Below, piece by piece: positions 37,555 through 38,690 of a stretch of 64,000 nucleotides of DNA. The translations under genes and the position numbers were made by a program. This DNA is from a virus. Its lineage: Duplodnaviria > Caudoviricetes. The first letter of the stretch is position 1. Every line of letters begins with the position of its first letter. The notes under the pieces are model-generated. The model saw only the letters and a program-made list of their open reading frames with translations. It had not been told where the DNA came from and ran no database searches. Where the stretch lies: IMG/VR virus record IMGVR_UViG_3300046318_000318, one strand, 5' to 3'.

Positions 37555-38690
37555 ATCTTTAATAACACTTTATTCAAATGTTATTAAAGATACCCAATAT
37601 CACTATTGGGTCTTACCACTTATTACTCACGTAAGACAAAGCTCACATTTTCACATTAGATTCTATATTCTTTTACTCTTATAGACTTTACAGTCAGAGA
37701 TATTCCTTTAAGAATCTTACGTGGGTTTAAAGTCTTTCTACCATATCGTGTTATTAGTACCAGGGGCTGACTATGCAATCTTAGGCTTTTCCTGGATTCA
37801 GTCATGCTACAACTAATAACGCATCAGAGTAATTACTTCTGATATTTGACTTAGGTAATCTCCATTAGACTTATACCTTCTGTATTTAATCCGACCAGAC
37901 TGCCTTTCGCATGTATCTGGTTTTACTGTTTCCAGTAGTGAGCTAAACTCACATTTCGGTCAGATTGGTCCCAGAGTAACTCTGGACTTTGGAGATGGGC
38001 ACCCACTCGTTAAAGTGTTTTACCGTCTTTCGATAACTTTTACGCTCATTGACATAGCATGTGGTTTAAACATCGCTTGTCTTGATGGACTACAAGTTAT
38101 TTTTTCGGTGGCGTCTTGTTTATCTGTCTGCTTAATCGTTGTCGCTATTCCAAGGGCGAGTCCACCCATCCTGGCGAATGAGCTTCAATCTCTCACGACT
38201 ATCCTATAAACTTTTAAGCTTTTCCATTATTTCAGACCTTACAGCTAACGTCTATATCAGGCGATTAATATAGACATATGCGTATCTGTTGTCATGGCGA
38301 CAGATGTTCTCGATGATTGTTCAAGAACATCGATATTCCTCACATGAGTACATTACTGAAACTCATGCAACCTTTTACAAGGACGATATACTTAGGAACG
38401 CTAAGTATAATTAACTGTCTTTCACTCTCGTGTGGAGCTATTGAACTTAAAGCCACCAGTATCAAGACTAATCCTGGTTTCAATGATATTATTTATATAC
38501 CGCGCAAGGCGGTCGAGGTTTTTCTGGTGGGGATTTGATAGACCCTGTCGTTGCAGCAACACGTTTAGCCCTAGCAGACTGCAATCGTTTAAGGCTGTTG
38601 TCTATCTCATCCAGTTTGAACAACGACACAAGGTCGCACGCTCTCCAGAAATAACCCCATGAGAAATCATTCCACATGGCGATCACTTTC
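37555..38690 (-). ncRNA. candidate large structured ncRNA A (about 1.1 kb)
   Basis: dense hairpins, four minus-strand GNRA-capped stems, nested long-range helices; no convincing ORF. Confidence 0.6.

What the first reader, a model, noticed from the sequence alone, without database searches (positions are those of the whole stretch)
37555..38690. Candidate giant structured ncRNA A feeding into the intron-tRNA pair
Seen: four GNRA-capped stems on the minus strand, CCCAAUA-GUGA-UAUUGGG (37593-37610), UACUG-GAAA-CAGUA (37924-37937), CCUU-GUAA-AAGG (38371-38382) and CAC-GAGA-GUG (38423-38432). A nested 5' domain contains UUUCUGG/CCAGAAA and UGUCGUUG/CAACGACA. A run of consecutive hairpins spans 38250-38410. 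A 14-bp stem UAUCUUUAAUAACA/UGUUAUUAAAGAUA ends about 2 nt before the tRNA-Arg 5' end. Strand-biased GNRA loops suggest tertiary folding. I see no obvious sequence similarity to region B.
Basis: partly seen in the sequence, partly recalled or inferred. Interest (0 to 1): 0.82.

Follow-up and report, generated by a model that had tools for sequence, protein, structure and literature searches.

The report
New large structured jumbo-phage RNA
Next to two intron-bearing tRNA genes, an uncultured freshwater nucleus-forming jumbo phage carries a conserved 62-codon mini-gene that runs straight into a roughly 930-base, intricately folded non-coding RNA matching no catalogued RNA family, which resembles the puzzling giant phage RNAs GOLLD and ROOL in size and setting.

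Summary
The finding is real but needs redrawing. The window is a divergent chimallivirus (phiKZ-like, nucleus-forming) from freshwater metagenomes. It is kept open in every relative and ends in an invariant EKPRPP motif. It is not an RNA domain.

The next ~935 nt (38488..37554) are non-coding, with 21-33 stops per frame and 1- and 2-nt indels inside the best conserved block. This stretch is 93-96% identical in sister strains, more than the flanking genes (81% and 90%). Its 1000-nt folding z-score is -8.9, against -2.6 to -4.0 for coding controls.

Covariation supports a 230-nt core of seven hairpins plus a pseudoknot, a central block, and a GNRA hairpin with a 14-bp terminal stem that ends 2 nt before tRNA-Arg. 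Contigs from RNA libraries cover it.

Homologues occur in five lineages of related uncultured phages, usually among tRNA and tmRNA genes. No Rfam family, GenBank phage or IMG/VR contig matches.

Best reading: a new class of large structured phage RNA joined to a translated leader ORF. Its function is unknown, and I infer a role related to translation.

The parts
38995..39024 (-). Sigma-70-like promoter match (GTGTCA, 18 nt, TATAAT) after the terminator-like hairpin at 39110..39071. Possible start of the transcription unit.
   Evidence: Consensus scan only. In L016 the aligned stretch ends about 30 nt before the small ORF's ATG, because the 101-aa ORF is missing there. Inferred, not shown.
38691..38996 (-). 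101-aa ORF of no known family. A lineage-specific insert between the promoter-like site and the small ORF.
   Evidence: No Pfam or PHROG match. Absent from L016. A distant homologue lies elsewhere in L018.
38489..38677 (-). Small leader ORF: 62 codons plus stop. Predicted as one long helix followed by a Pro-rich tail, with an invariant EKPRPP (codons at 38524..38507).
   Evidence: The frame is open in 5 lineages; the chance of that is 0.012-0.063 in each. Indels against L034 are in frame. A profile search finds 11 clusters at 50% identity and 25 at 90%. The AF2 model has a helix at residues 5-43, pLDDT 72. Substitutions show only weak codon periodicity.
38499..38513 (-). Hairpin Pa (ACCGC/GCGGU), inside the last codons of the ORF.
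   Evidence: Becomes CCCC/GGGG in L019 by a change on both sides.
37554..38488 (-). Non-coding structured RNA, about 935 nt.
   Evidence: There are 21-33 stops per frame. Codes 4 and TAG=Q do not open it. It is 93.5% identical in L016, 95.8% in L037 and 98.4% in L015, against 81% and 90% for the flanking genes. Folding z is -8.9. Homologues are L019, L034, L048 and L049.
38455..38478 (-). Hairpin Pb (ACCAG/CUGGU with a 14-nt loop), the start of the near-invariant core.
   Evidence: Becomes ACCGU/ACGGU in L049, with two pairs changed on both sides.
38424..38438 (-). Hairpin Pc (GCUC/GAGU). Its loop carries 1- and 2-nt indels.
   Evidence: Becomes GCAU/AUGU in L048 and L049. The indels are not multiples of 3.
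38387..38409 (-). Hairpin Pd (9 bp).
   Evidence: Pairs change on both sides in L016 and L034. Absent from L019.
38371..38382 (-). Hairpin Pe (CCUU-GUAA-AAGG).
   Evidence: The stem is kept, with changes, in L019, L048 and L049.
38342..38368 (-). Hairpin Pf (CAUGAGU/ACUCAUG).
   Evidence: Five pairs change on both sides across lineages (helix 8).
38310..38340 (-). Pseudoknot block. It holds h9 (AGGAA 38340-38336 with UUCUU 38327-38323), Pg (UCGAUG 38333-38328 with CAUCGA 38315-38310) and the 3' strand of h4 (GAAC 38322-38319).
   Evidence: In Pg, 42 of 42 cells pair and 5 of 6 pairs change on both sides. For h9 and h4, helices 9 and 4.
38443..38446 (-). 5' strand of h4 (GUUC). It pairs with GAAC at 38322-38319 and so encloses Pc to Pf.
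   Evidence: GUUC/GAAC becomes GCUC/GAGC in L019 and L049 and ACUC/GAGU in L048 (helix 4: all cells paired).
38106..38228 (-). Central conserved block. It overlaps the spurious 49-aa ORF at 38169..38020.
   Evidence: Conserved in L048 and L049. It has 27 pairs, 8 changed on both sides, and 97% of cells paired. Changes in the 49-aa frame are mostly non-synonymous, and the frame is absent from L019 and L034.
37864..37990 (-). Lineage-specific expansion between CUCC and GGAG.
   Evidence: Replaced by a short hairpin loop in L049. Identical in sister strains, so there is nothing to test.
37593..37610 (-). GNRA-capped hairpin.
   Evidence: The stem covaries and the loop is GUGA, GCAA or GUAA.
37554..37592 (-). 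Terminal 14-bp hairpin with no U-tract in this phage. Probably protects the 3' end.
   Evidence: Covaries in L019, L034 and L049. It ends 2 nt before tRNA-Arg.
37248..37551 (-). tRNA-Arg(UCU), split by a group I intron (37517..37289, after U34).
   Evidence: Rfam Intron_gpI, 49.1 bits, E 6.6e-11. Exons were read by hand. ARAGORN misses the gene.
36927..37238 (-). tRNA(CAU), Ile2 or Met type, split by a group I intron (37200..36967).
   Evidence: Rfam Intron_gpI, 87.7 bits. Exons were read by hand. It lies just upstream of the TilS-like gene at 36856..36245.
36878..36918 (-). Intrinsic-terminator-like hairpin with a U-tract. Likely end of the unit.
   Evidence: z about -6.4.

Best explanation
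The region holds two joined things on the minus strand.

**Leader ORF (38677..38489).** This is a 62-codon ORF. The act of translating it, or its Pro-rich PPEKPRPP end, is what selection preserves.

**Structured RNA (38488..37554).** This is a ~935-nt non-coding RNA with a compact core: seven hairpins locked by a pseudoknot. After the core come a conserved central block, variable peripheral insertions, and a GNRA hairpin plus a long terminal stem.

**Likely mode of action.** The unit is transcribed with the phage's tRNA genes. The 3' end of the RNA is set where RNase P cuts the 5' end of tRNA-Arg, 2 nt after the terminal stem, and that stem then protects the RNA from 3' exonucleases. The folded RNA accumulates and acts in trans as a scaffold or decoy in the phage's takeover of translation or RNA metabolism. 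It may act together with the leader peptide. Alternatively, its folding may be set by the ribosome that translates the leader, because the last leader codons form the first helices.

**Shown:** the ORF family, the non-coding nature of the rest, conservation, covariation, the pseudoknot, the genomic setting, and presence in RNA libraries.

**Inferred:** co-transcription, the RNase P end, stability, action in trans, any link to translation, and any peptide-RNA partnership.

**My odds:** about 0.9 that this is a genuine structured RNA family with a translated leader; about 0.3 for the scaffold/decoy mechanism as worded.
For: **Carrier.** The phage has a chimallin and a divergent family B DNA polymerase. 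Its best DNA polymerase identity to any GenBank phage is 41%.

**Non-coding.** There are 1- and 2-nt indels inside the most conserved block.

**Constraint.** The RNA is 93.5% identical in L016, where the flanking genes are 81% and 90%. In strain L015 there are 11 substitutions in about 760 nt of RNA, against 20 synonymous changes in the 640-nt TilS gene.

**Folding.** z is -8.9, against -2.6 to -4.0 for coding controls.

**Covariation in the core (7 sequences).** 93.5% of cells pair, against 85.4 in shuffles. 20 pairs change on both sides, against 6.1 +/- 1.8 in shuffles (0 of 500 reach 20) and 0-4 when partners are slid. In Pg, 42 of 42 cells pair. The central block and the 3' end covary too. 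About 28 G-U cells fit the minus strand.

**Family.** The core model R1 scores 158-261 bits in L016, L037, L034, L049, L048 and L019. The carriers share other genes with the window.

**Leader ORF.**

**Setting.** tRNA-Arg(UCU) and tRNA(CAU) follow the RNA directly in the window and in L016. tRNA-Arg and a permuted tmRNA lie within 1.5 kb in L034. tRNA-Leu, tRNA-Arg, a tmRNA and tRNA(CAU) flank it in L019.

**RNA libraries.** Contigs from four freshwater metatranscriptome runs cover 37613..38636.
Against: - No function is shown.
- Only 5 lineages are in hand, and the tested structure was derived from the same alignment, so the covariation statistics lean towards it.
- The RNA runs were chosen because they hold the element. 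They are contigs, which give no strand, ends or level, and they may belong to one sampling campaign. Expression is therefore only weakly shown.
- The antisense strand also folds well (z -7.3).
- In L034, L019 and L049 a protein gene, not a tRNA, follows the RNA. There the 3' end cannot come from RNase P.
- L049 has no tRNA within 6.4 kb.
- Substitutions in the ORF show little third-position excess. The conserved peptide motifs are also invariant at synonymous sites, so the 'peptide' conservation may partly be RNA conservation.
- L034 lacks ~450 nt of the middle, so much of the RNA is dispensable.
Confidence: 0.6

Rival explanations
1. It is simply the mRNA of the small protein. The 0.9 kb behind it is a long 3' UTR whose hairpins act only in cis, for stability, processing or spacing before the tRNAs, and it has no function of its own.
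For: The ORF and the RNA are always adjacent and share helices. The terminal hairpin looks like a stabiliser. L034 manages with half the RNA.
Against: A pseudoknotted multi-helix core with near-invariant loops, plus a second conserved block 300 nt further on, is far more than a stabilising UTR needs. The RNA is conserved at least as well as the ORF: 93.5% against 93.7% in L016. The peptide itself is only loosely constrained.
Confidence: 0.15
2. It is a cis-regulatory leader for the downstream tRNA genes, a giant attenuator or T-box-like sensor. Ribosome progress on the leader ORF would decide read-through.
For: The leader ORF overlaps the first helices. CCACC (38530-38526) could pair with GGUGG (38457-38453) as an alternative to Pb. 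tRNAs follow directly in the window and in L016.
Against: AGA and AUA codons, read by the two tRNAs, are not enriched in the leaders: 0-4 and 0-2 per ~62 codons, and none in L019. The phage uses both codons commonly. In L034, L019 and L049 protein genes follow. There is no T-box or other Rfam match. 900 nt is out of scale for an attenuator.
Confidence: 0.06
3. It is a very divergent member of GOLLD or ROOL, the known giant phage RNAs near tRNA islands.
For: Same setting and size class: phage-encoded, beside tRNAs, 0.6-0.9 kb, ornate, with variable regions. The descriptions of GOLLD and ROOL are in bioRxiv 10.1101/2024.12.08.627333.
Against: Neither family matches at E up to 10, with permissive filters, in three lineages. 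Here the 5' core is the conserved part, whereas GOLLD has a conserved 3' region. No leader ORF is described for either.
Confidence: 0.05
4. It is decaying DNA: the remnant of a homing-endonuclease gene, of an intron or of other coding sequence. In that case the hairpins mean nothing.
For: The window is full of group I introns. The tRNA cassette next door has been swapped between strains.
Against: It is conserved more than the neighbouring genes. Compensatory changes are frequent. Relatives with only 26-50% identity in the leader peptide keep the same architecture. There is no protein or intron match.
Confidence: 0.02
5. It is a protein gene read by an unusual code or by programmed frameshifts.
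For: None beyond the lack of annotation.
Against: Codes 4 and TAG=Q leave it closed. There are 21-33 stops per frame. The rest of the window is densely coding under code 11. The conserved block has indels that are not multiples of 3.
Confidence: 0.01

Closest known systems
[quoted passage not shown]
   Same: Encoded by phages, often beside tRNA genes. Over 800 nt, with elaborate structure and variable regions. Known partly from lake metagenomes. Function unknown.
   Different: No match to the Rfam model. In GOLLD the conserved part is 3'; here it is the 5' core plus the 3' hairpins. GOLLD has no leader ORF. The carriers here are nucleus-forming jumbo phages. An oligomeric cage was not tested.
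ROOL RNA (Rumen-Originating, Ornate, Large)
   Same: A phage or prophage RNA near tRNA islands, with multiple pseudoknots. It can be very abundant, and no protein partner is known.
   Different: No Rfam match. ROOL is about 580-660 nt, from a different habitat and different hosts, and has no leader ORF.
Dual-function RNAs such as Staphylococcus aureus RNAIII (hld) or SgrS (sgrT) (my own knowledge)
   Same: A small translated ORF sits inside a larger, highly structured RNA that has its own function.
   Different: Those are chromosomal base-pairing regulators of 200-500 nt. Here no target is known, the RNA is twice as long, it has a pseudoknotted core, and it sits in a phage tRNA island.
Phage T4 stable RNAs C and D (species 1 and 2) in the tRNA cluster (my own knowledge)
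   Same: Stable RNAs of unknown function, co-transcribed and processed with phage tRNAs.
   Different: They are about 120-140 nt, partly tRNA-like, and have no ORF.
Ribosome-arrest or leader peptides with Pro-rich ends (SecM, RAPP-type ApdA/ApdP, polyproline stalls; my own knowledge)
   Same: A short ORF with a variable N-terminal part and an invariant Pro-rich C-terminal motif (PPEKPRPP), overlapping RNA helices.
   Different: No downstream ORF has a start site that a stall would unmask. Stalling is untested. The motif is not RAPP.

Membership tests
GOLLD | Match to the family's covariance model in Rfam | tested here: not met
   No hit at the gathering score, nor at E up to 10 with permissive filters in the window, L019 or L034.
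GOLLD | Encoded in phages or prophages, often next to tRNA genes | tested here: met
   The carrier is a chimallivirus. tRNAs are adjacent or nearby in the window, L016, L019, L034 and L048.
GOLLD | [quoted passage not shown] | tested here: not met
   Here the 5' core (38488..38296) and the last ~60 nt are shared by all lineages. The middle is variable.
GOLLD / ROOL | RNA-only homo-oligomeric nanocage | not testable with these tools
   Needs cryo-EM or light scattering on the transcript.
ROOL | Match to the family's covariance model in Rfam | tested here: not met
Group I intron | Match to Rfam Intron_gpI (P3-P8 core) | tested here: not met
   The two neighbours match (87.7 and 49.1 bits). Nothing matches in 37554..38690 at E up to 10.
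tmRNA | tRNA-like domain plus tag reading frame, found by ARAGORN or Rfam | tested here: not met
   L019 and L034 carry a true permuted tmRNA besides this RNA, so it does not replace one.
Dual-function RNA (ORF inside a structured RNA) | A small ORF under selection that shares a transcript and helices with a conserved structured RNA | tested here: met
   ORF retention. Pa lies in its last codons. Translation itself is not testable here.
Dual-function RNA (ORF inside a structured RNA) | Regulates targets in trans by base pairing | not tested
   The host is unknown and no target search is possible.
Leader-peptide attenuator | Leader enriched in codons that depend on the regulated product | tested here: not met
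   AGA 0-4 and AUA 0-2 per leader; none in L019.
Leader-peptide attenuator | The regulated genes follow in all members | tested here: not met
   tRNAs follow only in the window and in L016.
Ribosome-arrest peptide | Invariant C-terminal motif with a variable N-terminal part | tested here: met
   EKPRP is invariant in 11 clusters, and the N-terminal halves are barely alignable.
Ribosome-arrest peptide | Demonstrated stalling that changes expression of a downstream ORF | not testable with these tools
   Needs toeprinting or a reporter. No ORF follows within the RNA.

The most novel reading that the evidence does not exclude
This is a third, independent class of giant ornate phage RNA, and the first from nucleus-forming jumbo phages. 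Like GOLLD and ROOL it would build a higher-order particle, either RNA-only or together with its own helical, Pro-tailed leader peptide. Its folding would be licensed co-translationally by a ribosome pausing on the PPEKPRPP codons, which form the first helices. The particle would act on the translation machinery or on tRNAs during infection.
Probability: 0.15. Interest if true: 0.9.

Novelty: new variant of a known kind. Interest (0 to 1): 0.72.

Why it matters
Only a few bacterial or phage RNAs larger than 500 nt with elaborate conserved folds are known. Two of them, GOLLD and ROOL, are also phage RNAs beside tRNA genes, and their function is still open despite recent cryo-EM structures.

An unrelated RNA of the same size in the same setting suggests that 'a big folded RNA in the tRNA island' is a recurrent phage solution to some common problem. 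This example comes from a very different phage group, one that separates transcription (in a protein-shelled nucleus) from translation. It therefore offers a new system in which to ask what that problem is.

The fused, conserved leader ORF is a handle that GOLLD and ROOL lack. It ties the RNA to the ribosome in a way that can be tested in vitro, without needing the uncultured phage.

Tried and rejected
**Genetic code and known families**
- Codes 4 and TAG=Q do not open the region.
- No Rfam family besides the introns, at the gathering score or at E up to 10, in three lineages.

**Searches in sequence collections**
- Distant blastn of the window's, L049's and L019's elements against 50,697 phage records gave only intron-core hits or nothing.
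- tblastn of a leader peptide against the same records at E up to 10 gave nothing.
- IMG/VR: two motif scans and three protein-seeded scans found no relative. One further call failed because the machine was busy.
- The genome contigs motif scan gave only chance matches in coding DNA.
- Of the 13 metagenome motif hits, 10 were also chance matches.
- Core model R1 found no hit in the TilS-linked loci L017, L018 and L020-L028, no second copy in the window, and nothing in five whole phage genomes: FLC9, FLC1-1B, RSL2, SURPRISE13 and a 642-kb uncultured phage. The tool itself notes that an empty answer there shows little.

**Folding tests**
- Sliding 150-nt z-scores were no better than in coding DNA, apart from the perfect hairpins. 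Two larger scripts timed out.
- Counting substitutions against the window's single-sequence MFE gave 42 pairs kept and 29 broken, too crude to use.

**Ideas dropped**
- Resemblance of the Pb loop to the 16S 790 loop, and of two other motifs to the 23S GTPase centre. This was recalled from memory, is not conserved in L048 or L049, and no rRNA model matches.
- An attenuator sensing AGA or AUA codons.
- A link to the nearby Transposase_20-domain protein (bridge-RNA idea). That gene is also present in L017, which lacks the RNA, and its position varies.

**RNA-library contigs**
- Stretches of the 20 kb without cover in the four runs, and the contig depths (for example 129 over 37721-38315 in X17, against 25 or less for other pieces), cannot rank genes. 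The runs were chosen for holding the element, and each contig has only one depth figure. I do not use them as evidence.

**Not attempted**
- Complex prediction was not used. No protein-protein claim is made.
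Full report
**What the window is.** Genes run mostly on the minus strand and are dense under code 11. A chimallin (23196-25064) and a divergent family B DNA polymerase (27659-29782) mark it as a phiKZ-like, nucleus-forming jumbo phage. It is far from cultured phages: the best DNA polymerase identity is 41%, to Burkholderia and Ralstonia phages, and megablast finds nothing. Identical or near-identical contigs come from several freshwater metagenomes. No whole genome is held.

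**The neighbourhood.** Between the 101-aa ORF (38996..38691) and a TilS-like PP-loop gene (36856..36245) lie 1.8 kb without a long ORF.
- Rfam finds two group I introns there.
- Reading the flanks by hand shows that each intron splits a tRNA which ARAGORN misses: tRNA-Arg(UCU) at 37551..37248 (intron 37517..37289) and tRNA(CAU) at 37238..36927 (intron 37200..36967).
- A strong terminator-like hairpin follows at 36918..36878. A sigma-70-like promoter match and another terminator-like hairpin lie upstream at about 39024 and 39110.
- The phage uses AGA and AUA codons often. This explains the two tRNAs and the lysidine synthase.

- Alternative codes do not open it.
- As a 1000-nt block it folds at z = -8.9. 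Three coding blocks of the same phage give -2.9, -2.6 and -4.0, and the antisense strand gives -7.3.
- Short windows do not discriminate.

**Relatives.** Homologues of the TilS-like protein led to contigs of related phages.
- In L016 (TilS 94% identical) the block 38699..37555 is 93% identical, while the gene upstream is 81% and TilS is 90%. The 101-aa ORF is missing there. The two tRNAs are replaced by intron-less tRNAs with the same anticodons but unrelated sequences.
- In strain L015 the RNA has 11 changes in about 760 nt, the tRNAs and introns have none, and TilS has 20 synonymous changes.
- L019 (TilS 70%) has a homologous ~1-kb ORF-free stretch.
- A motif scan of metagenomes added L037, L030 and a short version, L034.
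- A profile of the small ORF found 11 clusters at 50% identity and 25 at 90%. Two of these gave L048 and L049-L051, where the ORF is again followed by about 880 nt without a gene.
- The carriers share other genes with the window.

**The 5' part is an ORF.** From ATG 38677 to the stop at 38491-38489 the frame is open in all five lineages. The chance of that is 0.012-0.063 per lineage, and the other two frames hold 1-7 stops each.
- Indels against L034 are in frame.
- Three lineages have a good Shine-Dalgarno sequence (read from the sequence).
- The peptides share W-G..W..D, RLQS, TAAT-G and an invariant EKPRP(P). The tail after that motif varies in length.
- AF2 gives one long helix followed by an extended Pro-rich tail.
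- No Pfam or PHROG family matches, and no paper mentions the motif.
- Two oddities stand out. Substitutions show little third-position excess. The conserved motifs are also fixed at synonymous sites, and the last codons form hairpin Pa. Translation itself, or a Pro-rich pause, may therefore matter more than the peptide sequence.

**The rest is a structured RNA.** Right after the stop begins the best conserved block of the whole region. It contains 1- and 2-nt indels, so it does not code.
- On seven sequences, RNAalifold and a covariance model (R1) give a 230-nt core.
- 93.5% of cells pair, against 85.4% after shuffling. 20 pairs change on both sides, against 6.1 +/- 1.8 after shuffling (0 of 500 shuffles reach 20) and 0-4 when partners are slid by 1-3 columns.
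- A further helix, Pg, pairs in 42 of 42 cells, and 5 of its 6 pairs are compensated. Pg crosses h9 and h4, which also covary. The core is therefore a pseudoknot that closes a junction of hairpins Pc to Pf.
- The central block (38228..38106) and the 3' end also covary.
- L034 lacks about 450 nt of the middle. The window's lineage has a private ~125-nt expansion. Variation of this kind is typical of large RNAs.
- Caveat: there are few lineages, and the structure was derived from the same alignment on which it was tested.

**Expression.** Six freshwater metatranscriptome runs hold parts of the element. Contigs from four of them cover 37613..38636. This fits transcription. However, the runs were picked for holding the element, and contigs give no strand, ends or level. 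I count it as weak support.

**Setting in relatives.**
- L016: tRNA-Arg and tRNA(CAU) follow the RNA directly.
- L034: tRNA-Arg and a permuted tmRNA lie within 1.5 kb downstream.
- L019: tRNA-Leu, tRNA-Arg and a tmRNA lie upstream, and tRNA(CAU) downstream.
- L048: tRNA-Leu lies 2.7 kb upstream.
- L049: no tRNA within 6.4 kb.

The RNA therefore belongs to the phages' island of translation RNAs, but it is not tied to particular tRNAs or to the introns.

**Comparison with known families.**
- No Rfam family matches in three lineages.
- No GenBank phage, IMG/VR contig or GTDB genome has it.
- R1 finds nothing in five related or giant phage genomes.
- The known phiKZ and 201phi2-1 ncRNAs are small and UTR-derived (PMC10914365).
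- The nearest analogues in kind are GOLLD and ROOL. It is not a member of either by the one test available.

**Verdict.** This is a genuine new family: a leader ORF fused to a ~0.9-kb pseudoknotted RNA, found in a clade of uncultured jumbo phages. The function is unknown. My best guess is a stable trans-acting scaffold or decoy connected with translation, whose 3' end in this phage is made by tRNA processing. That guess is inference.

Noticed in passing
window 37551..37248 and 37238..36927 (minus strand): Two tRNA genes, Arg-UCU and CAU, are each split by a group I intron in the anticodon loop. ARAGORN misses both. They sit just upstream of a TilS-like lysidine synthase gene (36856..36245).
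   Followed up: partly
L016:5766-5930: The sister phage has tRNA-Arg(tct) and tRNA(cat) at the same place, but with unrelated sequences and no introns. The cassette was swapped next to an RNA that is 93% identical.
   Followed up: partly
window 48728-50366: 'Region B' is a group I intron (50131-50339) in a tRNA-like gene, followed by a second ~1.3-kb stretch without ORFs. Weak matches to the 3' end of tmRNA lie at 49990-50006. It is not related to the RNA studied here by model R1.
   Followed up: partly
window 30600-31358: An ORF-free gap covered by RNA-library contigs (30956-31348) in two runs. It may be another non-coding RNA.
   Followed up: no
window 7080-7407, 19515-19807, 19886-20196: Three more group I introns, two of them in tandem. 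The interrupted genes were not worked out.
   Followed up: no
L021:11940-12021: A twister-sister ribozyme match (42 bits; gathering score 34) beside a tRNA, just downstream of the TilS gene of a more distant relative.
   Followed up: no
L019:1486-1833; L034:804-1142: Phage-borne permuted (two-piece) tmRNA genes of the betaproteobacterial type lie near the RNA. This hints at the host group.
   Followed up: no
window 32574-33419 (minus strand); L049:2877-3755; L017:7686-8663: A conserved 281-325-aa phage protein has a Transposase_20 (IS110 C-terminal) domain above the Pfam cut-off. No DEDD nuclease domain was detected.
   Followed up: partly
window 38644..38636 (codons 12-14 of the small ORF): A three-codon patch is hypervariable among otherwise near-identical strains: RAC, DTR and GPY.
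   Followed up: no
L034:2932-4854: A 640-aa protein that looks like a methyl-accepting chemotaxis protein (judged by eye only) lies directly upstream of the leader ORF on this 5.5-kb contig. That would be odd for a phage. The contig's origin is unverified.
   Followed up: no
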